Assembly: GCA_963780445.1 (NCBI GenBank)
Contig: CAWACC010000008.1
Location: 12,523 to 76,522 of the forward strand
Reading direction: 5' to 3'
DNA from: an uncultured Parachlamydiaceae bacterium
Lineage (GTDB): Bacteria; Chlamydiota; Chlamydiia; Chlamydiales; Parachlamydiaceae
Length of the DNA stretch: 64,000 bases
Each line of letters begins with the position of its first letter. The stretch's first letter is position 1. The notes below the pieces were generated by a model. The model was given only the letters and a program-made list of their open reading frames with translations. It was not told where the DNA came from and made no database searches. Made by a program: the position numbers and the translations under genes. Below, piece after piece: positions 10,051 through 58,054 of the stretch.

Positions 10051-10404
10051 TAATGGATCCACAGTCATTTCCCCTGCAGGGGAAAATATAATCCCAGTCA
10101 TTTCCCCGGCAGGGGAAAATATAATCCCAGTCATTTCCCCGGCAGGGGAAAACGTGAATAGCCCCGTGTGAAGCGAGCGTAAGCGAGCGGAACGCGGGGT
10201 TATTGCATAATAAATATTGCGCCCCGGTAGGGGCGCAAGAATCCTTCCTTTCATCCAAATATTGTTTTGTGTTTTGTGTTTCGTGCGCCCCTGCCGGGGC
10301 GCAATCTTTACTATGCTGCAAACCCCGTGTTCCGCTCGCTGACGCTCGCTTCACACGGGGCTATTCACGTTTTCCCCTGCCGGGGAAATGACTGTGGACC
10401 CATT
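10051..10404. repeat. Roughly 355-bp nested palindromic element inside the V-ATPase operon
   Basis: Left terminus TAATGGATCCACAGTCATTTCCCCTGCAGGGGAAAA pairs with right terminus TTTTCCCCTGCCGGGGAAATGACTGTGGACCCATTA. Inner arms 10152-10201 and 10321-10369 are reverse complements, as are 10202-10240 and 10281-10321. Each arm contains GC-rich mini-hairpins (TTCCCC-TGCA-GGGGAA; GCGCCCC-GGTA-GGGGCGC). Confidence 0.9.
10062..10153. repeat. Three tandem 33-bp units (CAGTCATTTCCCCNGCAGGGGAAAATATAATCC) in the left arm only
   Basis: Unit starts at 10062, 10095 and 10128 give an exact 33-bp period. The right arm carries a single copy. Confidence 0.9.
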
Positions 10405-22945: not shown

Positions 22946-23070
22946 TTCTTCACCACTGAGACACTGAGATCACTGAGAAAATATGAGATAATTGAGAGGG
23001 ATTATAATTTAGGCATCTATCTCATTATCTCATACCTTCTCAGTGATCTCAGTGGCTCAGTGGTGAAGAA
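22946..23070. repeat. Family-A (CACTGAG) palindromic element, copy 2
   Basis: TTCTTCACCACTGAGACACTGAGATCACTGAGAAAATATGAGATA ... TCTCATACCTTCTCAGTGATCTCAGTGGCTCAGTGGTGAAGAA. Confidence 0.9.
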
Positions 23071-23097: not shown

Positions 23098-24135
23098 ATG
23101 AACTCCCACCTTTTTAAAAATAAAACCGTCCTGATCACAGGGGGTACCGGCAGCTTTGGACGCTCTTTTGCCAAACGGCTCCTGACTGAAAATGAATGCA
23201 CCAAAGTGATCATCTTCAGCAGGGATGAATGGAAGCAATGGGAAATGCAACAATCAGATCCCATTTTCAAGCACCCCAAAATCCGCTATTTCTTGGGAGA
23301 CGTCCGTGACTCCACCCGCCTGATGCGGGCCTTCCACGAGGTCCACTATGTAATCCATGCCGCGGCCCTGAAGCAGGTGCCTGCTGCTGAATACAATCCC
23401 GGCGAATTCATCAAAACAAATGTATTGGGCGCCATGAACATCATCGAGGCCGCCATCGATTGCCAGGTGGAAAAAGTGATTGCCCTCTCTACAGACAAAG
23501 CCGTCAACCCCATCAACCTATATGGAGCCACCAAACTGTGCTCAGACAAACTGTTTATAGCCGGCAATGCCTATGTGGGCGCCAGAGGAATTCCCCGATT
23601 TTCAGTCGCCCGATATGGCAATGTTTCCGGAAGCCGCGGCAGCATTATCCCTTTTTGGGCCGGGCTGCTGGCAGAAGGAGCCGCATCGCTGCCCATTACA
23701 GACAGCCGCATGACACGTTTCTGGATCACCCTGGACCAAGCCATCGATTTTGTAGAAAAATGCTTTCAGGAAATGCGGGGAGGTGAAATTTTTGTACCGA
23801 AAATCCCCAGCATCCACATTGAAGACCTGGCAGAAGCCATGGCTCCTGGATTACCTAAAACCTATTGCGGAATCAGGGACGGAGAAAAATTGCATGAACT
23901 CATGATCAGCTCCGACGACGCAAGGCATACCATCGAATTCTCCGATCATTATGTCATCATTCCCGAAGCCTATATCCATGATCTCCATAAGCTCGCCAAA
24001 TTCTTGGATGGGCGGGAAGGTCAATTCACTCCGGAAGGCTTCTGTTATACCTCGAATAACAACACCCAGTGGCTGAAGGTTGAAGAACTGCGAAAACTAG
24101 TCAAAAGGGAAGGGACTAAAGGCAAAGGGACATAG
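23098..24135 (+). CDS. UDP-N-acetylglucosamine 4,6-dehydratase-like SDR (PseB/FlaA1/CapD family)
   Basis: 345 aa with Rossmann motif VLITGGTGSFG and catalytic YGATK. The last roughly 10 codons (REGTKGKGT*) are encoded by the family-B repeat. Confidence 0.8.
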   Translation: MNSHLFKNKTVLITGGTGSFGRSFAKRLLTENECTKVIIFSRDEWKQWEMQQSDPIFKHPKIRYFLGDVRDSTRLMRAFHEVHYVIHAAALKQVPAAEYNPGEFIKTNVLGAMNIIEAAIDCQVEKVIALSTDKAVNPINLYGATKLCSDKLFIAGNAYVGARGIPRFSVARYGNVSGSRGSIIPFWAGLLAEGAASLPITDSRMTRFWITLDQAIDFVEKCFQEMRGGEIFVPKIPSIHIEDLAEAMAPGLPKTYCGIRDGEKLHELMISSDDARHTIEFSDHYVIIPEAYIHDLHKLAKFLDGREGQFTPEGFCYTSNNNTQWLKVEELRKLVKREGTKGKGT

Positions 24136-24217
24136 GGACATAAGGGACCTAAGGGACTAAAGGGACAAAATTCATAATTTTATGTCCCTTAGGTCCCTTA
24201 GGTCCTTTAGGTCCCTT
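24105..24217. repeat. Family-B (AAGGGAC 9-mer) palindrome, copy 1
   Basis: The left arm has about 6 units of NNAAGGGAC, the loop is AAAATTCATAATTTTA, and the right arm is TGTCCCTTAGGTCCCTTAGGTCCTTTAGGTCCCTT. Confidence 0.9.
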
Positions 24218-26699: not shown

Positions 26700-27593
26700 A
26701 TGCAAAGTATAAATACAAGTTTACCTATAGTTTATCCATCATTTCAAAACCTGGAAAGTGGATGGAACACACTTCCTCAAGATCTATCAAACAATATTTT
26801 TACCCAAGCTGGCGCGGAAAATCTTCCTTCGCTAGCTTTAACATGCAAAAATTGGTCAGTTCTAGCTGATAATAAAGAATTTAGAGAAAGTATACGGCCT
26901 GCCGGAATATTTGGCGCTAAGGAATGGAAAGAAACTTTTGATGTAGATGCCGGTGAAGAACCTAATTTGCCACGATGCGCCTACGCGGAAATGAAAGATG
27001 ATAACTTTCAGATCATTTTAGTTCCTGAAAAAGTTAAGGATGAGAAGGATGAAATTAATCTATATAGTAAAAAAGGGATAGATAAACTATTTAAAAAAAC
27101 AAAAAAATTAACTCTAAGGACAAATTGCCCTTTTATTTCAAATTGCTTCAAAATAATCAATCCCGAGAAAACACACTGGCTATCTATTGCAAAAGACTAT
27201 ATAAACACTGGTGGCTATTACAATGGTCAATTCCATGACATAGCAAAAAGACCGGTACACGTACGAATGGGATCTTGTGTTGTAAAACACATTCAGGCAA
27301 AAAAAGGAGAAGATATTTCTAGGCTCATAGATACTATAATAGCGCAAAGTATAAAATATATCAAAAAGCCAGATTTTAAAATGAAATTGTTCGTTGTTAA
27401 AGAAAAAATAGATTCTAAGACCCATATATGCGTCCATATTTACTTTGACATGCTTCATGGAATGGAATTGTGCGTTGGACATCCTGAAAATTATTCTTAT
27501 GAAAATTGGACCTATAATATTACTTTAGCAAAAAGATATTTTGCTCCTGAAGAAAATGCAATGGAAATCTGTGATCCTGATAATGCAATTTAA
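26700..27593 (+). CDS. F-box-like protein (paralog family 1, copy 2)
   Basis: 297 aa, a tandem duplicate of 25542..26462 (start-to-start period 1158 bp) with the same N-terminus and F-box-like motif. It stops at a TAA just before the family-C repeat. Confidence 0.65.
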   Translation: MQSINTSLPIVYPSFQNLESGWNTLPQDLSNNIFTQAGAENLPSLALTCKNWSVLADNKEFRESIRPAGIFGAKEWKETFDVDAGEEPNLPRCAYAEMKDDNFQIILVPEKVKDEKDEINLYSKKGIDKLFKKTKKLTLRTNCPFISNCFKIINPEKTHWLSIAKDYINTGGYYNGQFHDIAKRPVHVRMGSCVVKHIQAKKGEDISRLIDTIIAQSIKYIKKPDFKMKLFVVKEKIDSKTHICVHIYFDMLHGMELCVGHPENYSYENWTYNITLAKRYFAPEENAMEICDPDNAI

Positions 27594-27662
27594 AAAACGA
27601 CTTTAACGACCTTCACGACGATAATAAAAATGTCGTTAAGGTCGTTATTGTCGTTTGTCGTT
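27594..27662. repeat. Family-C (AACGAC) palindrome
   Basis: AAACGACTTTAACGACCTTCACGACGAT / loop / GTCGTTAAGGTCGTTATTGTCGTTTGTCGTT. Confidence 0.85.
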
Positions 27663-28404: not shown

Positions 28405-28502
28405 AAGCCTCCATTTAAAAAATTTTATAATCTAGCGAATCCAGTATAATTAATTAGGAAATATAAAATCAATTAAAAAGCAGTTCTTGCGAAAATTTGA
28501 GT

Positions 28503-28665
28503 AAAGGGACGAAAGGGACCTAAAGGACATAAGGAACCTAAAGGACATAAGGGACAAAACGACAAACAACGATAACGACCTGAACGACAATAACGACCTT
28601 AACGACAAACGACTTGTTTATTGTCGTCGTTAAAGTCGTTATTGTCGTTAAAGTCGTTTGTCGTT
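28503..28665. repeat. Family-B direct array (28503-28555) abutting a family-C palindrome (28556-28665)
   Basis: AAAGGGACGAAAGGGACCTAAAGGACATAAGGAACCTAAAGGACATAAGGGAC, then AACGAC-unit arms around the loop TTGTTTATT. Lies immediately downstream of the 5S rRNA. Confidence 0.9.
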
Positions 28666-28678
28666 AAATAAAAAAAAA

Positions 28679-28794
28679 GCCTGGCGGCGACCTACTCTCC
28701 CACACTCTTGTGTGCAGTACCATCGGCGATGAAAGGCTTAACTTCTGAGTTCGGAATGGGGTCAGGTGTTTCCCTTTCTCTATTGCCACCAGGC
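28679..28794 (-). rRNA. rrf: 5S ribosomal RNA
   Basis: The reverse complement reads GCCTGGTGGCAATAGAGAAAGGGAAACACCTGACCCCATTCCGAACTCAGAAGTTAAGCC...GGGAGAGTAGGTCGCCGCCAGGC, followed by a T-run. Confidence 0.93.
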
Positions 28795-29023
28795 AAGAAT
28801 ATCTTCGAATCCCTAGGGCTCTGTGCCCTAGTTGCCTAGGGCGATGCCCTAGGCTTCTACATACCAGGCTTTCAGCCTGATGATCGGATTTTGAATTCAC
28901 TTACAAAAATCAACGCTTGAGGTTATTCTTCACACACTCATTACAACTGTGATTTTACTAAACTTGCGACCACTCTTTCTTTATAGACGCTTTCTTAAGG
29001 TCCTTATTCACGTCTTCTTAAAA

Positions 29024-31967
<2,944 letters not shown>

Positions 31968-32275
31968 AAAAATTTATTCTTTGTTCAGCTGTAATATATT
32001 GTTGTTCGATCTCTCGAACATTGAGCTACGATGAGTATTGATTACTAGCTTCTTTTATGCCTTAGTCGCGGTCTGCACCTCTGCATATTTTTATGTGTGA
32101 AGATTATTCCTCAACGCCGTTGACTTTTTGGTCATGTGAATGCCTATATGTAGTTTCCCGCTGATTTGTCAGATCGTAAGTCTGATGATATTGAATAATT
32201 TAGCTTGGCAACGGTTACGATCGTTCAATCTGCGTAGACTGTGATAGCATACTGCACCGCAAAGCATAAAATTCA

Positions 32276-32349
32276 GTCGGTTACCAAGACTTGAACTTGG
32301 GACCTCGACATTATCAGTGTCGCGCTCTGACCAACTGAGCTATAACCGC
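32276..32349 (-). tRNA. tRNA-Ile (anticodon GAT)
   Basis: Reverse complement GCGGTTATAGCTCAGTTGGTCAGAGCGCGACACTGATAATGTCGAGGTCCCAAGTTCAAGTCTTGGTAACCGAC. Anticodon loop CTGATAA. No CCA is encoded. Confidence 0.85.
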
Positions 32350-32365
32350 TTATGCTTGTTAACCA

Positions 32366-32437
32366 TGGAGGCTAGGAGACTCGAACTCCTGACCCTCTGA
32401 ATGCAAATCAGATGCTCTACCAACTGAGCTAAACCCC
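32366..32437 (-). tRNA. tRNA-Ala (anticodon TGC)
   Basis: Reverse complement GGGGTTTAGCTCAGTTGGTAGAGCATCTGATTTGCATTCAGAGGGTCAGGAGTTCGAGTCTCCTAGCCTCCA. Anticodon loop TTTGCAT. The G3:U70 identity pair is present. Confidence 0.85.
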
Positions 32438-32621
32438 GATTATACCTAATAATGAGTATACAGGATGAGATTCAGCCAATTAAATGACCCGTTCTCGAGA
32501 GCGCTCCGCGGCGTAACTTGTTTCCATGATTCTGTCATTTTGACAACGAAAGAAGACGACGTGTTTACTAGTGAAGTTTGCCCAACCTAAGTATCGCATC
32601 TTCTGCGATACTTTGTCCTTT

Positions 32622-34158
<1,537 letters not shown>

Positions 34159-34376
34159 AAAAAAAAAATTTTGAAAATTTGTTGGTGACACTTTACGTGT
34201 CTTTTATAATTCGTGATTTATCGTTTATTATAACGAGTTCACGTACAAGCTTTATTTCGTTTGCACATCGTCTTTTATCTACTGTCAAAACAACATTGAT
34301 CGCATCAGGCGATCTGTTCGATTCATTTGATATTAGCTTGCCCTTGCCTACTACTCACCATGCGAATGAAGCTCAA

Positions 34377-34472: not shown

Positions 34473-34623
34473 AAGGGTAAGGGACCAAAGGGACGAAAGG
34501 GACCAAAGGGACCAAAGGGACGAAAGAGACATAAGGGACATAAGGGACATACAAAATATGCTGTGATTCCTTACGCCCTTTCGTCCTTTATATCCCTTTT
34601 GCCCCTTATGTCCCTTTGGTCCC
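34473..34623. repeat. Family-B (AAGGGAC 9-mer) palindrome, largest copy
   Basis: Eight consecutive 9-bp units (GTAAGGGAC CAAAGGGAC GAAAGGGAC CAAAGGGAC CAAAGGGAC GAAAGAGAC ATAAGGGAC ATAAGGGAC), a loop, then degenerate inverted units ...CCCTTATGTCCCTTTGGTCCC. Confidence 0.92.
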
Positions 34624-35379
34624 AGTTGCCTTTTGCAATAATGCTGTGATCACTTCCGGATTATTATCATATATTTTTTTTACAATTTCATTTAGCAGTG
34701 TTCTAGCTCCCTTATGATTTTTTTCTACAGCTTTTTTAAGCCAGAACAAAGCCTTTTGAATTCTAGCCATGCAATCTTTTTTGGTTTCATTATCTGGCAC
34801 CCACGCACCTCCTTGATCAAGCAATCGCTTTCCCAAAAAGTAGGTAGCTTCCAGGTGCCCTTTATTTGCTGCCTGCTCTAACCAGTAGAGAATTACCTCG
34901 ACTTTAGGTCCATCCTCAAAATCATTCGTGTATATGATATAACCATAATAGGCAGTATAATACAGCCATAATGCTTTAGGGTTTTCAAAAGGATCTCCAT
35001 CTTCATTCTCCACATATCTTTTGGCCAATATATATAGGGCATAATAATCCTCCGGGTTTGCGACCACATCGAGATGATGCATGCATTTAAAATACTGCCT
35101 TGCAGCTTTTTCAGTTACATAGTATCTTCCATAAGCATCTTTCAGCTCTCTTACATTTGATGAATATAAATACACAGTACGGGACAAATGCTGAAACCAG
35201 TACTTCATATTGGATTGATTCCTTGCATGGATCCTATCGTTTACTATTTTTGAAATGAGACAGCATTTTGCCAGGTGCCGGGGTGTCAGATATCCGAAAA
35301 TTTTGCTTCTGAGCTCTTCTGGAAGGGATACAAAGTCGTAAACTATCTGGTTAGGCGGCTGGGCATTGTAACTAATCAT
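34606..35379 (-). CDS. F-box / Sel1-like repeat protein
   Basis: 257 aa with the canonical F-box LPEELRSKIFGYLTPRHLAKCCLISKIVNDRI and Sel1-like repeats (WLEQAANKGHLEATYFLGKRLL; WLKKAVEKNHKGARTLL). The C-terminal ...TGTKGT* is encoded by the family-B repeat. Confidence 0.75.
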   Translation of the reverse strand: MISYNAQPPNQIVYDFVSLPEELRSKIFGYLTPRHLAKCCLISKIVNDRIHARNQSNMKYWFQHLSRTVYLYSSNVRELKDAYGRYYVTEKAARQYFKCMHHLDVVANPEDYYALYILAKRYVENEDGDPFENPKALWLYYTAYYGYIIYTNDFEDGPKVEVILYWLEQAANKGHLEATYFLGKRLLDQGGAWVPDNETKKDCMARIQKALFWLKKAVEKNHKGARTLLNEIVKKIYDNNPEVITALLQKATGTKGT

Positions 35380-38269: not shown

Positions 38270-39163
38270 ATGTTTTGCAAACGCCTGAAAAAAGAAATTG
38301 CTCCCGGCACTTTCATTTCCACTCCCGCGCGCCTCATGGCTATATTGCAATTGTGCCTGGCTTTTACGGTCCTGGCATGGCAGGCGGGTTATCCCTTTAT
38401 GGGAGAGCTGTTTGAAATAAAATCAAAATTGCTGGTCTATGACTATGTGATGGGGGTGAACAATGCAACCTATGCAGAACAGTTTTCGAATCTGCCCGAA
38501 AAGAAGAAAGAAGAAATTTTAAGGGAATACCAGACCTTAAAAGCTCATTTGGGCCGCCCTTTTGTGGATAAAGCGCTAGATTCTGTAGAAAGGGTATTTT
38601 TCAGCCTATCCCCCTTCAAATTATTGTGGATATTCTTCTCCATCATTATTCCCATTTTATTGCTTAAGAAGGTCGAAGGGGCCGCTTCAGTGATCTGGCT
38701 CCTTCCCTTGACCACCATGGTATTTATTGTCCATAACAGATGGTATGGAGAGGTGGTTCCTCTTTCCAAGGATACACAGCTTTTTCCTACTGAAGAAATC
38801 ATTGTTAATAACTATTTGAGGCATCCTTTGAGTTCCGATTTAAACCTGCAGGAGAAGCAGCTTCGCAATGGCTGGGAACTGTATTTGATTGAGGAATGGG
38901 CAAAAGAAACTCCTTCTTCGGATGCCTTCCAATTCACATTACAGAAAGAAAAAGGCGATTTTGCATTTAATCTTGCCCGGCTTTCCGGGCTGGAAATCAA
39001 ACCCTATAAATCATTCAATAATACACAGGAATCCTATCCTGTTTTGGCTCTCTATTTATTTTGGAACCTATCTTTTGCGTTAGTGGTGGGATCGGCTCTC
39101 CAGACTCCGCAGACAAGGCAAACAATACAAATTGTGTACCATTCTTCACCACTGAGCCAGTGA
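38270..39163 (+). CDS. Hypothetical integral membrane protein
   Basis: 297 aa with several TM helices. The start is 3 nt after the upstream stop, suggesting translational coupling. The last codons (SSPLSQ*) lie inside the family-A repeat arm. Confidence 0.5.
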   Translation: MFCKRLKKEIAPGTFISTPARLMAILQLCLAFTVLAWQAGYPFMGELFEIKSKLLVYDYVMGVNNATYAEQFSNLPEKKKEEILREYQTLKAHLGRPFVDKALDSVERVFFSLSPFKLLWIFFSIIIPILLLKKVEGAASVIWLLPLTTMVFIVHNRWYGEVVPLSKDTQLFPTEEIIVNNYLRHPLSSDLNLQEKQLRNGWELYLIEEWAKETPSSDAFQFTLQKEKGDFAFNLARLSGLEIKPYKSFNNTQESYPVLALYLFWNLSFALVVGSALQTPQTRQTIQIVYHSSPLSQ

Positions 39164-39270
39164 GATCACTGAGAAGGTTTGAGATAGGGAGGATAGATGC
39201 CTATTGATCAACTGTAACATGGCATTTGACGTACGTCCTTAAAAAGTTATGGCAAAGCAAAGCATGAAAA
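39143..39270. repeat. Half family-A element (39143-39200) plus a partial inverted family-D fragment (39228-39270)
   Basis: TTCTTCACCACTGAGCCAGTGAGATCACTGAGAAGGTTTGAGATAGGGAGGATAGATGCC has no right arm. GACGTACGTCCTTAAAAAGTTATGGCAAAGCAAAGCATGAAAA is the reverse complement of the family-D right arm. Confidence 0.8.
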
Positions 39271-39359: not shown

Positions 39360-41222
39360 ATGAACAAAATTGATTCTATTAATCCTGCATTCGAGACTCC
39401 TCTTCACCTGGCAGTCAAAAGAGGTGATTTGCCCCAATGTAAATTATTGTTGGAGAAGGGCGCTAATATTAACGCCATCAATTGCCTTGGACAAAAAATA
39501 TTACCTATTGCATACGAATCTGAAAACAAAGAGCTCAGGTTCTTTTTTTTAAAAGAGATGATGAAAACCAAACCATTGTCCAATGATGGCAAGACTCCCA
39601 TTTTTGAATATGAGTGTTATCATCACAAACCTCTTTCCGACAAGGAATATGATGATTTTGAAGCGCCTCATAATGAGTTGACAAAATTGACAAAAGAACT
39701 GAAGCTTTTAGGCTTACGCTTTTCTTTACGAGGAAACGTCTTTGAAGGGAGCCCCTCTTTTTTAACCTATAATGCTCTCGCTTCATCTCTGGAAAACTAT
39801 TTAAAGCTCAATCCAGGGCAACCAGCGTCTATTCAATCCATTCCTGATATCATTAAAAATTCTGTAAATATTAAATCTGAGGAAATAATCACACAATTAA
39901 AGCAAAACAAAATAGCGACCCTTTCTTGCGGTTGGCCAGGACATGAAACAACAATAGTCTGTTCTAATAAATATTTAATAATCTGTAATAGGGGAAGTCA
40001 ATGTGGGGATAAACCTGGAATCACCCTATATTCGATTAATAATCCTGCAAAGCTTGATGCCATTATCAGAACCCTTATTGAAAATAGACAGTGGAAACTG
40101 GATCAGAAGGAACAAGCCAAAATTGCAATTGAGGGTACAAGAATTGCTTTTCTAAAAGAAAACATGAAAGAAAAATTTATTAATTTTTTTAATAAAGAAT
40201 TACAGGAAACATTGAAACTTAAAGAACTTCGATATTTCAAACAAAAACCTCAGACAAGTGGAAACTGTGCCTGGATTGGGCCAAAAATGGCTTTCCAGGG
40301 AATTATTATCCTCAATTCAATGCTGGAAAACCCCAATGCCGACCTCGATGACCTTATAAAGGAATCCAAAAAAATTTATACTGAATGGAAAGAATTTGAT
40401 TTGATTCATTCTTTGAAAATCCTCTCCGAAGCGGAAAAAGAACCTTTACTCAAATCTATAGTCGATTTTGAAGCAGTCTATGATGAGTTGTTTGCTTTAA
40501 ATCTTTCAAGAAAACCAGCTCTTGATATGCTATGCAATGCACGACCTCGTTTAAAAGAGTGGATTTCCAATCCCCCTTCTCACGTGATTTCCCATGCCTA
40601 TCAGCATAAGAGTTCAAAACTTTTAAAATCGTGCCTTTCCGCTGGCATTCCACCTGATTTGGAAAAGTTCAGCAAGTGCAACGATAACAAAATCTCCGAC
40701 ATTCATTACGATTACTTTCTAAAGAAAGATATAAAAGCCAATCAGGCGGATGCTTCCGGGATAACTCCTCTGCATGCCCTGTGCTGCAATGCTAACACAG
40801 CCAAGTTGCTGGAACTATTAAAATCCTGGAAAAAGGAAAGTGAAGAACTGAAAGAACCGCAATTATTTCAGAATGCCTTAAACGGTAAAAGTAGTTTAGG
40901 ATTGAACTTTCTTGATGTTCTAATTACAAAAGCAAAGGATCTGGCATCTTTAAAAGAATTGATCGATTGGTCCATTAAATCCGGAGCTGGTATTTTTGAT
41001 GCGACTATTCAGAATACCTTGGTAAAATTCAAAAAAACAGAAGACCTGGAAGTGATCAAAATGCTGTTGAAAAATGCAGGTTATTCTTTGGATGATTGCG
41101 CTTTCCTCTTTGATAATTTATTGAATGGTGAGCCTTACGAATTTACGGAAGCGGTTTTTATGGATTTGTCAGCAGATAGACAAAAATCCCTGCAAAATAA
41201 CCCAGAAGGGCAGGTACAGTAA
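39360..41222 (+). CDS. Ankyrin-repeat protein with a large non-repeat central domain (candidate effector)
   Basis: 620 aa with an N-terminal ANK repeat (TPLHLAVKRGDLPQCKLLLEKGANINAIN) and C-terminal ANK repeats (ITPLHALCCNANTAKLLELL...). The central region of about 350 aa carries the motifs GWPGHETTIVCSNKYLIICNRG and QTSGNCAWIG. Confidence 0.7.
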   Translation: MNKIDSINPAFETPLHLAVKRGDLPQCKLLLEKGANINAINCLGQKILPIAYESENKELRFFFLKEMMKTKPLSNDGKTPIFEYECYHHKPLSDKEYDDFEAPHNELTKLTKELKLLGLRFSLRGNVFEGSPSFLTYNALASSLENYLKLNPGQPASIQSIPDIIKNSVNIKSEEIITQLKQNKIATLSCGWPGHETTIVCSNKYLIICNRGSQCGDKPGITLYSINNPAKLDAIIRTLIENRQWKLDQKEQAKIAIEGTRIAFLKENMKEKFINFFNKELQETLKLKELRYFKQKPQTSGNCAWIGPKMAFQGIIILNSMLENPNADLDDLIKESKKIYTEWKEFDLIHSLKILSEAEKEPLLKSIVDFEAVYDELFALNLSRKPALDMLCNARPRLKEWISNPPSHVISHAYQHKSSKLLKSCLSAGIPPDLEKFSKCNDNKISDIHYDYFLKKDIKANQADASGITPLHALCCNANTAKLLELLKSWKKESEELKEPQLFQNALNGKSSLGLNFLDVLITKAKDLASLKELIDWSIKSGAGIFDATIQNTLVKFKKTEDLEVIKMLLKNAGYSLDDCAFLFDNLLNGEPYEFTEAVFMDLSADRQKSLQNNPEGQVQ

Positions 41223-42514: not shown

Positions 42515-43027
42515 ATGGAAACTAGGTTATTGGTCATTAAAACCCATCTTAAACCAGCTATAAAAAGGACAGCCTTAGTCAGAGGTACTTTGCTGGGTGG
42601 ACTGGGAGCTGTTATTATGGTTTTAGGCGGAATATATATTCCTCTCAATTCACTTGCAGTATGGGGCCTTCCGCTATTTCTGGCGGGTTTCGGTCTGATC
42701 ACCCTAGGCCTTCTCCCCTATCGAAAACTGTTGCGGCAAGAACAGCAGCCCTGTGAACTGCATCTTTATGAGGCCAGGCTGTTATTTATACACAAAAGGA
42801 TTCTTCTCACCTTGCCTCTGGCCAGTATAGAAAAAATGGAATTTCAAACCCTTCGAAACATGGAAGGTATTACTGTATATCTTAAAAATCCTGTACCAGA
42901 GAAAATAGTGCTTCACAGGCAGCGGCTTTCTGCAAAGCAATTGTATTATTTTAAAAACGCCCTATTTTTCCCTAATTTCAGCCATAGATCTTACGAAGAA
43001 TTAATGAAAGGGACCAAAGGGACATAA
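42515..43027 (+). CDS. Hypothetical membrane protein
   Basis: About 170 aa with two N-terminal TM helices. The C-terminal MKGTKGT* is encoded by a family-B repeat. Start placed at the first ATG; the track uses a TTG at 42509. Confidence 0.45.
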   Translation: METRLLVIKTHLKPAIKRTALVRGTLLGGLGAVIMVLGGIYIPLNSLAVWGLPLFLAGFGLITLGLLPYRKLLRQEQQPCELHLYEARLLFIHKRILLTLPLASIEKMEFQTLRNMEGITVYLKNPVPEKIVLHRQRLSAKQLYYFKNALFFPNFSHRSYEELMKGTKGT

Positions 43028-43051
43028 ATTTGTTGTCCCTTAGGTCCCTTT
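43007..43051. repeat. Family-B hairpin between convergent genes
   Basis: AAAGGGACCAAAGGGACATAAATTTGTTGTCCCTTAGGTCCCTTT fills the whole convergent spacer, in a bidirectional-terminator-like position. Confidence 0.85.
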
Positions 43052-43052
43052 C

Positions 43053-44122: not shown

Positions 44123-45577
44123 ATGAATATTAAAAAAATTCCTATAACCATTGCTGAAGGAGATGGCATTGGCCCAGAAATTATGAACGCAACTTTGTTG
44201 ATTCTGGAAACTGCCAAAGCCCCGCTTGATATTCATCGCGTGGAAATAGGGGAAAAAGTGTATAAGCGAGGTGAAAAGACCGGCATTGAACCTGCGACAT
44301 GGGATGCGATCCGCCGGACAAAGGCTTTTTTAAAAGCTCCCATAACCACTCCGCAAGGAGGAGGATTCAAAAGCCTGAATGTGACTATCCGGACTTCTCT
44401 TGGGCTTTATGCCAATGTGAGGCCCTGTATTTCTTACAGCCCCTTTGTGGAATCAAGGCATCCCAAAATGAATGTCGTCGTCGTAAGGGAAAACGAGGAG
44501 GACCTCTATACAGGCATAGAATACCGCCAGACACCGGATACCTACCACGCCTTGAAAATCATCACCAGGCCAGGATGTGAAAAGATCGTCCGTTATGCGT
44601 TTGAATATGCCAGGGCGAACAAAAGAAAAAAGGTGACCTGTTTTACAAAAGACAACATCTTAAAACTATCCGACGGGCTTTTTCACAAAATCTTTGACGA
44701 AATCGCAAAAGAGTACCCTGATCTGGAAAATGAACATTGGATTGTGGATATCGGCGCTGCCAAGCTGGCGGATACTCCCGAAGTCTTTGATGTGATCGTC
44801 ATGCCCAATTTATATGGAGATATCCTCTCCGATGTGGCCGCCCAGATTGCCGGCTCTGTGGGACTGGCCGGATCGGCCAACATTGGAGAACACGGGGCCA
44901 TGTTTGAAGCCATTCATGGATCAGCTCCCAGGCGGGCAGGGCAGAACCTGGCAAATCCCTCGGGACTCCTGCTGGCGGCAGTACAAATGCTGGTACATTT
45001 GGGACTTGCTGAAACAGGGACTCTAATCCACAATGCCTGGTTGAAAACCTTGGAAGATGGCATTCATACCTATGATATTTTCAAACCCAATACAAGCAAG
45101 GAAAAGGTAGGCACAAAAGAATTTGCGAAAGCTGTAGCTGCCCGATTGGGCCAAATCCCGCATACGCTCAAGGCGGTTCATTATGCCGCACCTAACATGA
45201 GCAAACACACACCTTCGCAGCCATCTTCCCAAGCTCCAAAGATAACAAAGGAACTTGTTGGCATCGACGTTTTTATTGAATCTCATGGAGATGTAGAATC
45301 CCTGCAAAAAAAATTGTCCTCCCTGAAAAACAAGGATTTCAAACTCACGATGATCAGCAACCGCGGAGTGCGCGTATGGCCGGAAAAGATGCCTGAGACC
45401 TCCTGCAGCGATACCTGGAGGTGTCGTTTCATGAAGAAAGAAAACAAACTCCATTTAAAGCAGTTAGCGGAGCTTATTCAAAATCTGGCAGATGCCCAAG
45501 TGGATTTTGTCAAAACAGAACATCTGTACACTTTTGATGGAGTGCCGGGGTATACGGTAGCCCAAGATGAACAATAA
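44123..45577 (+). CDS. icd: Isocitrate dehydrogenase (isocitrate/isopropylmalate DH family, long form with a C-terminal extension of about 130 aa)
   Basis: 484 aa with the family signature NLYGDILSDVAAQIAGSVGLAGSANIG. The stop codon TAA is the first base triplet of the family-B repeat (TAAGGGAC). Confidence 0.8.
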   Translation: MNIKKIPITIAEGDGIGPEIMNATLLILETAKAPLDIHRVEIGEKVYKRGEKTGIEPATWDAIRRTKAFLKAPITTPQGGGFKSLNVTIRTSLGLYANVRPCISYSPFVESRHPKMNVVVVRENEEDLYTGIEYRQTPDTYHALKIITRPGCEKIVRYAFEYARANKRKKVTCFTKDNILKLSDGLFHKIFDEIAKEYPDLENEHWIVDIGAAKLADTPEVFDVIVMPNLYGDILSDVAAQIAGSVGLAGSANIGEHGAMFEAIHGSAPRRAGQNLANPSGLLLAAVQMLVHLGLAETGTLIHNAWLKTLEDGIHTYDIFKPNTSKEKVGTKEFAKAVAARLGQIPHTLKAVHYAAPNMSKHTPSQPSSQAPKITKELVGIDVFIESHGDVESLQKKLSSLKNKDFKLTMISNRGVRVWPEKMPETSCSDTWRCRFMKKENKLHLKQLAELIQNLADAQVDFVKTEHLYTFDGVPGYTVAQDEQ

Positions 45578-45786
45578 GGGACTAAAGGGACCAAAGGAAC
45601 ATAAAGGTTTACCACTGAGCCAGTGAGATCACTGAGAATGTATGAGATAATTGAGAGGAGTCTGAAACATATGTTAAAAGACGGACTTAATAGTATAGGA
45701 GTTGAATCTAACTCGCCCTATCTCATACCTTCTCTGTGATCTCACTGGCTCAGTGGTAAACCATGTCTTTTATGTCCCGTCTTTCA
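45575..45786. repeat. Composite element: family-A copy 4 (45608-45760) nested between family-B arms
   Basis: TAAGGGACTAAAGGGACCAAAGGAACATAAAGG | TTTACCACTGAGCCAGTGAGATCACTGAGAATGTATGAGATAATTGAGAGGAGTCTGAAACATATGT ... CTCACTGGCTCAGTGGTAAACC | ATGTCTTTTATGTCCCGTCTTTC. Confidence 0.9.
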
Positions 45787-46449
45787 TTGCTTTTCAACCT
45801 CGAATTTTTTGAATAATTCCCTGATGGCATTCCCTCGATCATTATCAAATTCATCCGATTTTATTATTCTTGCTATCGTGATTGTATCATAATCGATTTT
45901 TGCATTCATATCTGCTCCACTTTTCAGCAAAAATTCAATGATAGAAAGAGGCATAGACCTATTATATATATAATTAAGACATGCCGCAAGAAGAGGTGTC
46001 ACTCTACAATAAGTACGAGTATGTCCGCGTTTACAGTTCAAACTTTGCGGAATTAGCCTCACGATATCTTTGATATCCTTTTCGGTTTCTTGAGTATATG
46101 CCTTAATGGAATGATCGCCAAATGGGAGATTCCATCCGGTAAAAACAGCATCGAGAAGATGAGGATTTACATCACCGTCTTGTTCTCCATATTGCTCATA
46201 ATATTCGTTATATACAGAATATTTATTTACAAGCTCGTGGATTCTTTTTAGATCTTTCATTTTTTCAGAAAATACTACTGATGTTTCTTTGTTAATTTTG
46301 GCAATGTTGTTTATTGTGTTGGCATAATTTTTTATTTTGCAACTTGTAATCATTGTTGGTTGATCAAGAATGGCAATTTTTAAAATAATTGAATTGACCT
46401 CTGAAGGCAATTCTGGAAATAAGGGAAATGATAAATTTAAGTTGGACAT
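45784..46449 (-). CDS. F-box-like / ankyrin-repeat protein (paralog family 2, copy 1)
   Basis: 221 aa with N-terminus MSNLNLSFPLFPELPSEVNSIILK (tentative F-box-like LPxE...IL motif) and a C-terminal ANK-like segment TPLLAACLNY...IIEFLLKSGADMNAKI. One of three tandem paralogs. Confidence 0.6.
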   Translation of the reverse strand: MSNLNLSFPLFPELPSEVNSIILKIAILDQPTMITSCKIKNYANTINNIAKINKETSVVFSEKMKDLKRIHELVNKYSVYNEYYEQYGEQDGDVNPHLLDAVFTGWNLPFGDHSIKAYTQETEKDIKDIVRLIPQSLNCKRGHTRTYCRVTPLLAACLNYIYNRSMPLSIIEFLLKSGADMNAKIDYDTITIARIIKSDEFDNDRGNAIRELFKKFEVEKQ

Positions 46450-46551
46450 GATGTCTCCTATTATATTAGATTTTTGAACACGATTTTATTGAGGCATATG
46501 CCCGAGGTATTCCTCGAAAATTTTTTGAGCTAATTCTAACCGGGCCTTCTC

Positions 46552-47229
46552 CTAAATTTTTTCAAACTCGTATTTTTTGAATAATTCCCTGATGGCATGC
46601 CCTCGATCTGTATCAAATTCATCCGATTTTATCATTCTTGCTATCGAGATTGCACTACCATATTTACCAGAATCGATTTTTGCATTCATATCTGCTCCAC
46701 TTTTCAGCAAAAATTCAATGATAGAAAGAGGCCTAGGCGCATGATATTTATAATTAAGACATGCCGCAAAAAGGGGCGTCACTTTTTGACACATACGAGT
46801 ATATCCATGTTTACAGTTCAAACTCTGAGGAGTTAACCTCACGATATCTTTAATATCATTTTCGGTTTCTTGAGTATATTCCTGAATCGAATGATCGCCA
46901 AATGGGAGATTCCATCCGGTTAAAACAGCATCGAGAAGATGCGGATTTACATCACCGTCTTCTTCTCCATATTGCTCATAATCTCTGTTATATATAGTAT
47001 ATTTATTTACAAGTTCGCGAATTCTTTTTAAATCTTTCATTTTTTCAGAAAGCACTTCGAAGGTTGTTTTGTTAATCGAAGCAATGTTGTTTATTTTGTT
47101 GGCATAATCTTTTATTTTGCCACTTGTAATTATTGTTGGTTGATCAAGAATGACATTTTTTAAAATAATTGAATTGACCTCTGAAGGCAATTCTGGAAAT
47201 AAGGGAAATGATAAATTTAAGTTGGACAT
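46552..47229 (-). CDS. F-box-like / ankyrin-repeat protein (paralog family 2, copy 2)
   Basis: 225 aa, nearly identical at the N-terminus to copies 1 and 3. It ends at a TAG where copy 3 has TGG (Trp). Confidence 0.6.
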   Translation of the reverse strand: MSNLNLSFPLFPELPSEVNSIILKNVILDQPTIITSGKIKDYANKINNIASINKTTFEVLSEKMKDLKRIRELVNKYTIYNRDYEQYGEEDGDVNPHLLDAVLTGWNLPFGDHSIQEYTQETENDIKDIVRLTPQSLNCKHGYTRMCQKVTPLFAACLNYKYHAPRPLSIIEFLLKSGADMNAKIDSGKYGSAISIARMIKSDEFDTDRGHAIRELFKKYEFEKI

Positions 47230-47253
47230 GATGTCTCCTATTATATTAGATTT

Positions 47254-47315
47254 ACACGATGTGCGAGTTTGTCTTGCAGCCTTTCCAGGCTGTCAAGAAA
47301 AACTCGCACGCCGCG
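47254..47315. mobile_element. 62-bp palindromic (MITE-like) insertion flanked by an 8-bp direct duplication TTAGATTT
   Basis: The paralogous spacer at 46466-46480 reads TATTAGATTTTTGAACACG without interruption. Here the spacer reads TATTAGATTT[ACACGATGTGCGAGTTTGTCTTGCAGCCTTTCCAGGCTGTCAAGAAAAACTCGCACGCCGCG]TTAGATTTTTGAACACG. The insert folds as a long hairpin (GTGCGAGTTT.../...AAACTCGCAC). Confidence 0.6.
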
Positions 47316-47335
47316 TTAGATTTTTGAACACGATT

Positions 47336-48106
47336 TTATTGAGGCATAAGCCTGAGGTATTCCTCGAAAATTTTTTGAGCTAATTCTGGAGGTATTTCCG
47401 AAAGGATGGATTGCGGATCTTTCTTTTGTGCCAGAAATAGGAACCGGGCCTTTTCCCAAATTTTTTCAAACTTATATTTTTGGAGCAATTCCAAAATAGC
47501 ATGTTGTCGAGTGGCATCCATTTCTGTATAATTCTCTTCTACTAAGTAAGATGCAGATTCCTTCCCGGCGCAGGTTGCATAAAGATTCGCTCCACTTTTC
47601 AGCAAAAATTCAACGATGGAAACAGGTATTTTTTCGTTGATACATGCAACAATCAAAGGAGGAGTTTTAATGGTGAGACGCGTTTGTCCCTCATTACAAT
47701 TCAAACTTTGAGGAGTAAGCCTGACTATATCTTTGATATCCTTTTCGGTTTCTTGAGTATAAACCCCAATGGAATGTTTGCCACCAGGTAAATCCCATCC
47801 GGTAAAAACAGCATCGAGAAGATGGTGATTTATGAAACGGTCTCCAAATAGCTCATAACATTCGTTATATACAGTATATTTATTTATAAGTTCGTGGATT
47901 CTTTTTAGATCTTTCATTTTTTCAGAAAAGACTTCTGAGGTTTCTCTGTTAATCTTGGCAATGTTGTTAATTTTAATGGCACAATCTTTTATATTTTTAC
48001 TTGTAAATATTGTCGGTTGATCGAAAATGACATTTTTTAAAATAATTGAATTGACCTCTGAAGGCAAATCTGGAAATAAAGGAATTGATAAATTTAAGTT
48101 TGACAT
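47336..48106 (-). CDS. F-box-like / ankyrin-repeat protein (paralog family 2, copy 3, with a C-terminal extension)
   Basis: Start reassigned to MSNLNLSIPLFPDLPSEV to match its paralogs (the track ORF starts 22 codons upstream). It has an extra C-terminal tail ...KIWEKARFLFLAQKKDPQSILSEIPPELAQKIFEEYLRLMPQ containing a second F-box-like LxxIPPELxxKIF motif. Confidence 0.6.
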   Translation of the reverse strand: MSNLNLSIPLFPDLPSEVNSIILKNVIFDQPTIFTSKNIKDCAIKINNIAKINRETSEVFSEKMKDLKRIHELINKYTVYNECYELFGDRFINHHLLDAVFTGWDLPGGKHSIGVYTQETEKDIKDIVRLTPQSLNCNEGQTRLTIKTPPLIVACINEKIPVSIVEFLLKSGANLYATCAGKESASYLVEENYTEMDATRQHAILELLQKYKFEKIWEKARFLFLAQKKDPQSILSEIPPELAQKIFEEYLRLMPQ

Positions 48107-48250
48107 AACGTCTCCTGTTTCTATATTTTTGAATACGATATTAAATTTATAATAAATAAAAATAATCGTCAAGTATAAAAAAACATATATAAAAAAACGA
48201 TATTATGGTATGATTAGTTTTGCCTTTAATATTAAAGTTAAGGAGACAAC

Positions 48251-49711
48251 ATGAATCAAAATGTTTTTATAAGTAAATTTAATTCACTTAATCAGGCAGT
48301 TGATAGTGGTGAAATAATAAAAATTGCTAAAAATGGCGAATTAAAACACAAATGTGTGTCCGGGAATTTTTTCGAAAGACTCCGTGGACGCGTGGTCCGT
48401 GTTATTAAAGAAATATCGAGTTTTCTGACTGGAGAAGATTTACTGGCCAATGTCCGTATTAAAAACATAGCGCAGAAAACTTTTGATCTATGTAATAAAT
48501 ACTCTGAAGAACATAACGTGTCCTTAAGCCAACAAGAAGCTGATTCGGCTATTAAATTTTTGGAAAAGCTAAAAAATAAAGCCAAATCTGATATCTCAAA
48601 ACTGAATGTGGATATTTGTGTATTAAAGATACAGGCTCTTATGCTACAGCAAATTAACAATGAAGCGAACAAAACCCCTCCACCCGTGAGGCCGCAATTG
48701 CCGGATAACTTGCCTTCATTTGGCAGCACTACAAAAACAATTATATCTGATACTGCTGCAGCAAATACACCCACAATTACCACGACGACGACAACTCCAG
48801 CAACGCCAATAATTCCTACCCCCATCCCAACCCCACCCCCAACAGGAGCTATGCTACCCCCACCGCCTCCCCCTATGGGAATGCTATCTTCAAAAACCAC
48901 ATTGACACCTGAACAACAATGGAAACATGACCAAGAGACCAAGTTAAAAAGGAATCAACTGGAAAGGGCCAATCCAAACGCGTTTTACTGCCAGATACCC
49001 GTGGATGCCTTAACTAAAAGCCTGTTAACTGAACACTTGAATACACTCGGTTTCCTCAAAATAAATTCAAATCTCAACAAAGAAGAAAAAAAATATCTGG
49101 AAGAAAAGGAAAAAGAACTCAAATCCCGAATGGAATCCCGAAAAGAACCGATGAGCCAAAACAGCTCTGATTTTAAATACCAACTTTCTAGACTGACGAA
49201 TGAAGAACTTTCCATATTGATAGCCATATATTTCTCTACCCTAGAGAAAAAGGAAGAGAATTCCATCTATAACGAATTTAAATATCTGGTGGAAGGGAGT
49301 TTGAATAATTCGCCTGCATTGCTGTCAGGGCCGATAGGCCAACTTTTTATGGCAAATAAAACGCAATGGATTGAATTGTTAACTAGCAGTGGCGGCTGTT
49401 TAAGCGCTTTTCTCAAACTGTTAGAGGCAAGAATGAAAGGAACCATCCAGGAGCCGCAATATAAAGCCCAACCCTACGACCCCGCGAAGGTACGTCGCCA
49501 GGAAAAAGAGAAAACTCTACCTAACAATACTGCAACAACTGAAGGAAAACCAGAAATAAAGGATGAAATCATCCATCATAAGCCTTTGCATCATGTGGAT
49601 AAACAAGCGCAAGATCCAGTAGAAAAAACCCCTGAAGAAAATGAAGTCGAACGGATAAGAAGACTAATTAAAGAGCAAAACAAACGCGCCAACGGAAAAC
49701 CAAACGGCTAA
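48251..49711 (+). CDS. Proline/threonine-rich hypothetical protein (candidate effector)
   Basis: 486 aa. The central tract is TPPPVRPQLPDNLP...TPTITTTTTTPATPIIPTPIPTPPPTGAMLPPPPPPMGML, and the flanks are charged and helical. No enzymatic motif recognised. Confidence 0.5.
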   Translation: MNQNVFISKFNSLNQAVDSGEIIKIAKNGELKHKCVSGNFFERLRGRVVRVIKEISSFLTGEDLLANVRIKNIAQKTFDLCNKYSEEHNVSLSQQEADSAIKFLEKLKNKAKSDISKLNVDICVLKIQALMLQQINNEANKTPPPVRPQLPDNLPSFGSTTKTIISDTAAANTPTITTTTTTPATPIIPTPIPTPPPTGAMLPPPPPPMGMLSSKTTLTPEQQWKHDQETKLKRNQLERANPNAFYCQIPVDALTKSLLTEHLNTLGFLKINSNLNKEEKKYLEEKEKELKSRMESRKEPMSQNSSDFKYQLSRLTNEELSILIAIYFSTLEKKEENSIYNEFKYLVEGSLNNSPALLSGPIGQLFMANKTQWIELLTSSGGCLSAFLKLLEARMKGTIQEPQYKAQPYDPAKVRRQEKEKTLPNNTATTEGKPEIKDEIIHHKPLHHVDKQAQDPVEKTPEENEVERIRRLIKEQNKRANGKPNG

Positions 49712-49715
49712 AAGT

Positions 49716-49903
49716 AAAAGGGACCAAAGGGACATAGTTTACCACTGAGCCACTGAGATCACTGAGAAGGTATGAGATAATTGAGAGGAGTCTGAAACAT
49801 ATGTCAAAAAGACAGACTAAAACAGAGCCTAACCCTCTCTATCTCATACCTTCTCAGTGATCTCAGTGGCTCAGTGGTAAATTATATCCCTCTGGTCCCT
49901 TAT
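49716..49903. repeat. Composite element: family-A copy 5 (49738-49882) nested between family-B arms
   Basis: AAAAGGGACCAAAGGGACATAG | TTTACCACTGAGCCACTGAGATCACTGAGAAGGTATGAGATAATTGAGAGGAGTCTGAAACATATGT ... CAGTGATCTCAGTGGCTCAGTGGTAAATT | ATATCCCTCTGGTCCCTTAT. Same orientation and core as copy 4. Confidence 0.9.
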
Positions 49904-49946
49904 TTTTTTCTTTTCAATATCATCTTCTCTTTTATATAATGTGACC

Positions 49947-57676: not shown

Positions 57677-57989
57677 GATACAACTCCTATATACATCTTA
57701 ATTATAGCAAGAGTGATACTTTTATACAAGTATCCATTTTTATTCTCAATTTCCAGCAATTCCCGCTAAAAAAATACATTTTCCAAAAGTATCTTGAAAC
57801 GTCAAACAACAGAAATCTTTTCGTAAACTTTCAAACACCCTCGGCGGCAAGATATTGTTTATCGGAAAAAGGCATCCATATCCTGTCACCGAAGGCGCCC
57901 TGCCCATCCTGTTTTTTTCCTGGAGTTTCTGCTCAATTACCGTACATATTCAAAATTAATATAAAACTTGCTATAAAGTGAAAAAAAAT

Positions 57990-58035
57990 AGGGCATAAGG
58001 GACAAAAACTAATTTGATGTCCCTTATGTCCCTTT
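57990..58035. repeat. Family-B hairpin immediately upstream of the 58055 gene's SD
   Basis: AGGGCATAAGGGACAAAAACTAATTTGATGTCCCTTATGTCCCTTTA, followed by TCTTTTAGGAGGTAAATTATG. Confidence 0.85.
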
Positions 58036-58054
58036 ATCTTTTAGGAGGTAAATT

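What the first reader, a model, noticed from the sequence alone, without database searches (positions are those of the whole stretch)
47246..47323. Filled versus empty site: a 62-bp palindrome inserted with an 8-bp target-site duplication
The spacers below copies 2 and 3 of the tandem gene family are paralogous. At 46466-46480 the sequence runs TATTAGATTTTTGAACACG without interruption. At 47246-47323 the same sequence is split by a 62-bp hairpin-forming insert (GTGCGAGTTTGTCTTGCAGCC TTTCC AGGCTGTCAAGAAAAACTCGCAC), and TTAGATTT is duplicated on both sides. This is direct evidence, internal to the window, that tiny palindromic elements transpose or are otherwise inserted in this genome. It also implies the insertion post-dates the gene duplication.
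Basis: seen in the sequence. Interest (0 to 1): 0.66.

Follow-up and report, generated by a model that had tools for sequence, protein, structure and literature searches.

The report
Lone palindromic insertion with target duplication
A 62-base hairpin-forming piece of foreign DNA was recently inserted, with an 8-base duplication of its target, between two tandem genes of a chlamydia-related bacterium; it looks like a very small transposon relic, but no second copy could be found.

Summary
At 47246-47323, TTAGATTT + a 62-bp insert + TTAGATTT interrupts a sequence that is uninterrupted at the paralogous site 46466-46473. The flanks match at 86/86 and 70/72 bases.

Four other paralogous or orthologous sites are empty: upstream of copy 1, upstream of copy 3, and both sites in a 97%-identical relative. 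The event is therefore an insertion, not a deletion. It sits inside a 161-nt gene-conversion tract and so is very young.

The insert is a near-perfect palindrome of 55% GC in a 34-37% GC setting. It can also be read as a 63-bp element with AC...GT ends, 28-nt inverted repeats and a 7-bp duplication.

The best reading is a MITE-like element made only of terminal inverted repeats, integrated by a staggered-cut transposase acting in trans.

No sibling was found in the window, the relative's contig, one-pattern exact scans of 185,579 species genomes, JGI metagenomes and IMG/VR, or blastn of plasmids and phages. No transposase is encoded in the window. "Mobile family" therefore remains unproven, because the rest of the genome could not be searched. 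This is an ordinary kind of event, well documented within the window.

The parts
47246..47253 (.). Left copy of the duplicated target TTAGATTT.
   Evidence: Present once at each of the empty sites.
47254..47315 (.). The 62-bp insert, 55% GC, a near-perfect palindrome. Alternative parse: a 63-bp element 47254-47316 with AC...GT termini and a 7-bp duplication TAGATTT.
   Evidence: (pair I22).
47261..47309 (.). Hairpin core GTGCGAGTTTGTCTTGCAGCC-TTTCC-AGGCTGTCAAGAAAAACTCGCAC. As minus-strand RNA the stem extends through G-U pairs across the whole element.
   Evidence: DNA fold, z = -7.3. (RNA fold of 131 nt, -46.1 kcal/mol, z = -7.6).
47316..47323 (.). Right copy of the duplicated target TTAGATTT.
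46466..46473 (.). Empty paralogous site upstream of copy 1, with a single TTAGATTT.
48122..48128 (-). Empty, more diverged paralogous site upstream of copy 3 (minus strand ...ATCGTATTCAA AAATATA GAAACAGGAGAC...).
47157..47387 (.). High-identity tract, paired with 46377-46537. It has 2 substitutions in 161 nt plus the 70-bp indel, against about 13% divergence in the adjacent coding DNA. This is a recent gene-conversion tract that contains the insertion.
46552..47229 (-). Tandem gene copy 2 (225 aa, no Pfam family above cut-off). The insert is 16 nt upstream of its ATG.
47336..48106 (-). Tandem gene copy 3 (256 aa from the ATG that matches its paralogues). The insert begins 20 nt after its stop codon.
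   Evidence: (P0003).
45784..46449 (-). Tandem gene copy 1 (221 aa). Its upstream spacer holds the empty site.

Best explanation
A non-autonomous, MITE-like mini-element was integrated once, very recently, into the conserved region upstream of tandem gene copy 2. The element consists of little more than two imperfect 28-nt terminal inverted repeats around a 5-6-nt centre (62-63 bp).

Shown:
- The DNA is an insertion. One of five homologous sites is filled.
- It is flanked by an exact 8-bp (or 7-bp) duplication of an AT-rich target.
- It is compositionally foreign.
- Its ends are inverted repeats.
- It is younger than a conversion tract that has accumulated only 2 substitutions.

Inferred:
- The duplication was made by a DDE-type transposase that cut the target with a 7-8-nt stagger and joined the element's 3' ends, followed by gap repair.
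- The transposase, and the donor copy, lie elsewhere in the genome or have been lost.

Consequence (inferred, untested): if the tandem genes are co-transcribed, the minus-strand mRNA gains a very stable stem-loop without a U-tract between copy 3 and copy 2. The conserved upstream block of copy 2 is also split.
For: - Filled versus empty alignment with identical flanks and an exact 8-bp duplication.
- Four other homologous sites are empty, two of them in relative L011, which is 96.8% identical over 10.2 kb.
- Inverted repeat of 24/28 positions plus one indel, reaching the very ends in the 63-bp parse. The three outermost mismatches are all transitions.
- The hairpin is far more stable than shuffles.
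- The insert is 55% GC, against 37% for the spacer and 34% for the gene cluster.
- The insertion lies in the middle of a 161-nt tract with 2 substitutions, while the neighbouring DNA differs by about 13%.
- Size, terminal inverted repeats, target duplication and lack of coding capacity fit the published description of bacterial MITEs (PMC3184786; PMC6382973).
Against: - No second copy was found anywhere searched:
  - the window, by mismatch search, blastn-short and a covariance model with filters off;
  - the relative's 12.3-kb contig;
  - 185,579 species genomes, where 10 hairpins from unrelated phyla matched, close to my rough estimate of the chance number;
  - JGI metagenomes, with 2 hits that have no significant extension;
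  - IMG/VR;
  - plasmids and phages, where every hit had E >= 0.4.
- No transposase domain occurs in any main ORF of at least 150 aa in the window (ORFs overlapping larger ones were not scanned).
- The outermost 6-7 nt of the two ends differ at 3 positions, which is unusual for transposase cleavage sites.
- The first 7 nt of the insert (ACACGAT) recur 4 nt beyond the duplication in the flank. The chance of this is 0.01-0.02. It is not predicted by simple transposition.
Confidence: 0.6

Rival explanations
1. Transposase-independent capture. A palindromic fragment copied or ligated from elsewhere was inserted during repair or replication template switching at a staggered break, and fill-in produced the short duplication. 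On this view the recurrence of ACACGAT at the insert's edge and in the flank is a microhomology used in the event. An example would be a 19-bp duplication TTAGATTTTTGAACACGAT that later lost TTGA.
For: The element appears to be single-copy. No transposase is encoded in the window. The 7-mer recurs with a chance of about 0.01-0.02. The two ends are not identical at their tips.
Against: An exact 8-bp duplication combined with inverted repeats that run to the ends is the classic transposase signature. The 19-bp parse needs an extra 4-bp deletion. ACACGAT is native to all family upstream regions, so a chance match is plausible. Neither arm of the palindrome exists locally, which excludes a snap-back or inverted-duplication origin.
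Confidence: 0.15
2. A REP-like or IS200/IS605-type hairpin element moved by a single-strand (HUH/tyrosine) transposase such as a RAYT.
For: The size and GC-rich hairpin fall in the REP range of 21-65 bp (PMC3184786).
Against: Those systems insert without target duplication, whereas an exact 8-bp duplication is present here. There is no GTAG or CGTC head in the insert (direct reading). There are no clustered or multiple copies in 64 kb. No Y1/HUH transposase is encoded in the window.
Confidence: 0.06
3. Reverse polarity. The palindrome is ancestral to the spacers and was lost from the other sites by replication slippage between the 8-bp repeats.
For: Hairpins flanked by direct repeats are known deletion hotspots (general knowledge).
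Against: Four of five homologous sites are empty. These include the diverged sites upstream of copy 3 and of L011 gene l2, where the repeat sequence itself differs (AAATATA), so several independent precise deletions would be needed. The GC content of the insert is foreign to its setting. Even under this view the direct repeats around a palindrome would still need an original insertion.
Confidence: 0.03
4. An assembly or library artefact in a tandem-repeat region.
For: The region is a three-copy tandem array with near-identical segments, where assemblies are fragile. The relative has only two copies. No independent sequence of this junction exists.
Against: Artefacts do not create a clean target duplication with otherwise colinear flanks. 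From memory, and not tested against a database, the insert does not resemble common adapter or transposase mosaic-end sequences.
Confidence: 0.04

Closest known systems
Bacterial MITEs (for example MITEAba12, Correia, RUP and Nezha; type I MITEs derived from an IS by internal deletion)
   Same: It is short and non-coding. It has terminal inverted repeats that fold into one long stem-loop. It carries a target-site duplication in an AT-rich intergenic target and lies close to a gene start (PMC3184786, PMC6382973).
   Different: At 62-63 bp it sits at the very bottom of the stated size range (about 50-600 bp), with essentially no core between the repeats. Only one copy is known. No parent IS or transposase has been identified. 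The tips of the two ends are not identical.
REP / BIME elements mobilised by RAYT transposases
   Same: A small GC-rich imperfect palindrome in an intergenic region. It could act as an mRNA stem-loop.
   Different: It has a target duplication. It lacks the GTAG/CGTC head. It is neither abundant nor clustered in the 64 kb examined.
The window's own palindromic repeat families (the CACTGAG-armed 125-200-bp elements and the palindromic 9-mer arrays)
   Same: Same genome, intergenic, hairpin-forming.
   Different: There is no significant sequence relationship. The best match is 19/21 at 15711-15731 (E 0.04), without significant extension. Those families are shared at the same sites with the relative L011, whereas the 62-mer is a private, recent insertion.
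IS families that make 7-9-bp duplications (IS982 is recalled as having AC termini and 3-9-bp duplications; ISL3, IS256, IS6, IS66 and IS1595 make 8 bp)
   Same: The duplication length, and in the 63-bp parse the AC...GT termini.
   Different: This is recalled from memory only. No IS end could be compared and no such transposase is encoded in the window.

Membership tests
Bacterial MITE | Small size (about 50-600 bp) and no transposase gene | tested here: met
   The insert is 62-63 bp, too short to encode a protein.
Bacterial MITE | Terminal inverted repeats | tested here: met
   24 of 28 positions plus one indel, reaching the termini in the 63-bp parse. The outer 7 nt match at only 4 of 7.
Bacterial MITE | Target-site duplication, shown by an empty site | tested here: met
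   An exact 8-bp TTAGATTT duplication, with four homologous empty sites.
Bacterial MITE | Multiple dispersed copies in the genome or in relatives | tested here: inconclusive
   None found in 64 kb + 12 kb, in one-pattern exact scans of GTDB species genomes, JGI metagenomes and IMG/VR, or in blastn of plasmids and phages. The rest of the source genome (the contig is listed as 262,815 bp) could not be searched.
Bacterial MITE | Ends matching those of a resident IS whose transposase can act in trans | not testable with these tools
   No transposase domain in the scanned window ORFs of at least 150 aa. The whole genome is not available.
REP / RAYT elements | Conserved GTAG or CGTC tetranucleotide at one end of the palindrome | tested here: not met
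   GTAG, CTAC, CGTC and GACG are all absent from 47254-47315 (direct reading).
REP / RAYT elements | Insertion without target duplication, and high copy number or clusters | tested here: not met
   An 8-bp duplication is present and there is a single copy in the window.
Intrinsic (rho-independent) terminator | GC-rich hairpin followed directly by a U/T run on the transcribed strand | tested here: not met
   On the minus strand the hairpin is followed by AUCGUGUAAAUCUAAUAU. The terminator scan does not list it on either strand.
Curated RNA families (Rfam 15) | Match at or near a family's gathering score | tested here: not met
   Only a 16-bit match to an animal miRNA model whose gathering score is 90 bits.

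The most novel reading that the evidence does not exclude
The palindrome may be a currently active minimal transposon substrate in an environmental chlamydia, consisting of just two transposase-binding ends. That would make it among the smallest duplication-generating MITEs, and the first within-genome evidence of recent MITE transposition in Chlamydiota. Alternatively, it is a solitary hairpin inserted by a route that needs no transposase, with the ACACGAT microhomology as its trace.
Probability: 0.12. Interest if true: 0.55.

Novelty: new member of a known kind. Interest (0 to 1): 0.3.

Why it matters
This is a clean example, documented within the window, of a very recent insertion in a chlamydia-related genome. 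That lineage is poorly sampled: the flanking gene family has only six relatives among 5.8 billion proteins.

If sibling copies and a matching IS exist, the element would define a minimal MITE family. It would also give a dated marker for mobile-element activity and for concerted evolution of a tandem family of possible effector genes.

If it is truly unique, it is a curiosity about how short palindromes enter genomes. Either way the kind of event is well known, and the practical consequence is limited to possible effects on the expression of copy 2.

Tried and rejected
- Sibling searches. All were negative or at chance level:
  - left arm at up to 3 mismatches;
  - outer-stem gapped pattern in the window;
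  - blastn-short with word size 7;
  - covariance model with filters off on the window and loci;
  - L011;
  - Genome contigs outer-stem scan, giving 10 hairpins from unrelated phyla;
  - metagenome arm scan;
  - IMG/VR;
  - plasmids and phages.
- The 19/21 match at 15711-15731, inside a larger palindromic element. It aligns to that family's own centre and has no significant extension, so it was rejected as a sibling.
- The 22/22 match in L012. The contig carries type IV pilus and chemotaxis genes, so it does not look chlamydial. There is no significant extension, and the hit count matches my rough estimate of chance, so it was rejected.
- Looking up the window's own proteins to reach the rest of the genome: not on record.
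- A multi-copy F-box family as a route to other loci of relatives: only the window's own proteins were returned.
- Rfam: nothing relevant.
- Terminator or promoter reading: no T-run. The TTGACA in the insert is 45 nt from the TATAAT (and direct reading).
- Literature: full-text searches found no paper describing MITEs or small palindromic insertions in Chlamydiae.

Full report
**Observation.** Reading the two spacers and aligning them confirms the finding.
- The sequence ...CCTATTATA TTAGATTT TTGAACACGATTTTATTGAGG... runs uninterrupted at 46457-46495.
- At 47246-47323 it is split by TTAGATTT + 62 bp + TTAGATTT.
- The flanks are identical over 86 nt on the left and 70/72 nt on the right.
- The insert (47254-47315) is ACACGAT-GTGCGAGTTTGTCTTGCAGCC-TTTCC-AGGCTGTCAAGAAAAACTCGCAC-GCCGCG.
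- As single-stranded DNA it folds at -23.2 kcal/mol, z = -7.3 against shuffles.
Otherwise the description is accurate.

**Setting.** The window comes from a member of the Chlamydiota.
- The 16S rRNA gene begins GAGAATTTGATCTTGGTTCAGATTGAATGCTGACGGCGTGGATGAGGCATGCAAGTCGAACG. From memory this is a chlamydial signature.
- The genes include a V-type ATPase and eukaryote-like RasGEF, F-box, ankyrin and protein-kinase domains.
- The three tandem genes are on the minus strand: copy 1 at 45784-46449, copy 2 at 46552-47229, copy 3 at 47336-48106. They have no Pfam family above cut-off and only six relatives in a 5.8-billion-protein database.
- The insert lies 20 nt after the stop of copy 3 and 16 nt before the ATG of copy 2.

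**Polarity and age.** A syntenic contig from an ENA metagenome (L011) is 96.8% identical to the window over 10.2 kb. It carries only two tandem copies.
- Five homologous upstream sites were aligned: upstream of copies 1, 2 and 3 in the window, and upstream of both genes in L011. Only the site upstream of copy 2 is filled.
- The two sites upstream of copy 3 and of L011 gene l2 are diverged (AAATATA instead of AAATCTAA). Repeated precise deletion is therefore not credible, and the event is an insertion.
- The two window spacers, together with the first about 73 nt of copies 1 and 2, form a 161-nt tract with just 2 substitutions. The adjoining coding DNA differs by about 13%, and the orthologous L011 spacer differs from the window's spacer by roughly 18% (read).
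- This is a recent gene-conversion tract. A conversion across the site would have copied or erased the insert, so the insertion is younger still.

**Anatomy.**
- The insert is 55% GC, against 37% for the spacer and 34% for the gene cluster. It is compositionally foreign.
- Neither arm has a local source, which excludes a snap-back inverted duplication of neighbouring DNA.
- If one T of the duplication is assigned to the element, it becomes a 63-bp unit (47254-47316) with AC...GT termini, a 7-bp duplication (TAGATTT) and 28-nt inverted repeats. These match at 24/28 positions plus one indel. The three outermost mismatches are all transitions.
- On the minus, sense strand these mismatches become G-U pairs, so the RNA hairpin spans the whole element.
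- The hairpin is not followed by a T/U run and is not listed by the terminator scan.
- Rfam gives nothing meaningful.

**Search for siblings.** Every search was negative or at chance level.
- Window: none within 3 mismatches of the left arm, none with the outer-stem pattern, none by blastn-short. None by a covariance model built from both orientations and run with filters off; the next best hit has E = 0.16 and is an unrelated 9-mer palindrome.
- Best weak hit: 19/21 at 15711-15731. It aligns with the native centre of a different, larger palindromic family, and its flanks show no significant similarity.
- L011: none.
- 185,579 species genomes, scanned for GTGCGAGTTT-N18-42-AAACTCGCAC: ten hairpins from unrelated phyla, about the number I estimate by chance. 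None resembles the insert internally. The window's own genome was not hit, so it is not in that collection in this form.
- JGI metagenomes, scanned for either arm: two hits.
  - L012 is an exact 22-mer in a contig that encodes PilB/PilT/PilC, CheW and an MCP. It has no significant extension.
  - L013 lies in a 53% GC contig and also shows no further similarity to the insert.
- IMG/VR: no hits. Plasmid and phage collections: no significant hits.
- No transposase domain occurs in any main window ORF of at least 150 aa (ORFs overlapping larger ones were not scanned).
- The window's proteins could not be looked up to reach the rest of its genome. A multi-copy F-box family gave no relatives to use as stepping stones.

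**Interpretation.** The following together are the standard signature of integration by a staggered-cut (DDE-type) transposase:
- an exact short duplication of an AT-rich target;
- inverted repeats running to the ends;
- no coding capacity;
- foreign base composition;
- a demonstrable empty site.

These meet four of the defining features of bacterial MITEs as described in PMC3184786 and PMC6382973. At 62-63 bp the element is at the bottom of the quoted size range and is essentially two ends joined together. That is what an extreme internal deletion of an IS would leave. I therefore favour a MITE-like, inverted-repeat-only element mobilised in trans (confidence about 0.6).

Two features are untested: multiplicity, and a matching IS or transposase. 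That is why the element is not filed as an established MITE family.

**Rivals.**
- Transposase-independent capture during repair or template switching (0.15).
  - It is favoured by the apparent single copy, the non-identical tips, and one oddity. The first 7 nt of the insert, ACACGAT, recur in the flank 4 nt beyond the duplication, with a chance of 0.01-0.02.
  - That motif is native to all upstream regions of the family, so it was not left by the insert. It could be coincidence, insertion next to an end-like sequence, or microhomology.
- A REP/RAYT or IS200/IS605-type hairpin element (0.06). The duplication and the absence of a GTAG/CGTC head argue against it.
- Reverse polarity (0.03). The five-site comparison argues against it.
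- Assembly artefact (0.04). It cannot be excluded without reads, but it would not produce a clean duplication.

**Verdict.** This is a known kind of event in a little-studied lineage, so interest is modest.

Noticed in passing
window 15659-15798, 22946-23070, 45606-45762, 49710-49909 (half copy near 39145-39191); L011 2300-2510 and 9380-9445: A family of 125-200-bp palindromic elements. The arms are built from CACTGAG-type octamers ((GG)TTTACCACTGAGCCACTGAGATCACTGAGAA.GTATGAGATA) and the centres are variable. They are present at the same sites in the relative L011 and are often nested inside palindromic 9-mer arrays. They look like an older MITE-like family.
   Followed up: partly
window 24124-24217, 34479-34634, 43006-43052, 45575-45605, 49717-49738, 57981-58041; also 27595-27656, 28558-28665, 15800-15850: Palindromic arrays of tandem 9-mers (GGGACNNAA and AACGACNNT types) sit at gene ends. 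At 43027-43050 the array differs from L011 by exactly 9 and 18 bp, so unit number is polymorphic. They may be this genome's terminator-like structures.
   Followed up: partly
L011 7884-8348, corresponding to window ~40235 inside ORF 39360-41222: The relative carries a 465-bp insert bounded at both ends by the palindrome CCCTCTCCTTTAGGGGAGGG. It splits the orthologue of the window's 620-aa ankyrin-repeat ORF into two genes. This is a second filled/empty polymorphism, involving a different element.
   Followed up: partly
window 45784-48172 versus L011 888-2306: The tandem gene family is mosaic. Identity between copies swings from 41% to 100% in 100-nt blocks. The window has three copies and the 97%-identical relative has two, which indicates unequal crossing-over and gene conversion. 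Copy 3 reads through the stop position used by copy 2.
   Followed up: partly
window 10170-10352: A nested palindrome of about 180 bp in an intergenic region. The outer arms are GAAGCGAGCGTAAGCGAGCGGAACGCGGGG.../...CCCCGTGTTCCGCTCGCTGACGCTCGCTTC, and it contains two GC-rich sub-hairpins (GCGCCCCGGTAGGGGCGC and GCGCCCCTGCCGGGGCGC). It is unrelated to the other repeat families.
   Followed up: no
window 28500-34200 (minus strand); 11248-13593; 26700-27593; 39360-41222; 1641-3095: An rRNA operon with tRNA-Ile(GAT) and tRNA-Ala(TGC) in the 16S-23S spacer, and a chlamydial 16S 5' signature. Several ORFs carry eukaryote-like domains (RasGEF, F-box, ankyrin, protein kinase), typical of amoeba-associated chlamydiae.
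   Followed up: partly
window 47328-47334 and 46478-46484 versus 47254-47260: ACACGAT, the first 7 nt of the insert, recurs in the flank 4 nt beyond the target duplication. The chance of this is 0.01-0.02. In the filled allele the native motif ATCGTGT therefore abuts AAATCTAA directly, 4 nt closer to the ATG of copy 2. This is unexplained.
   Followed up: partly
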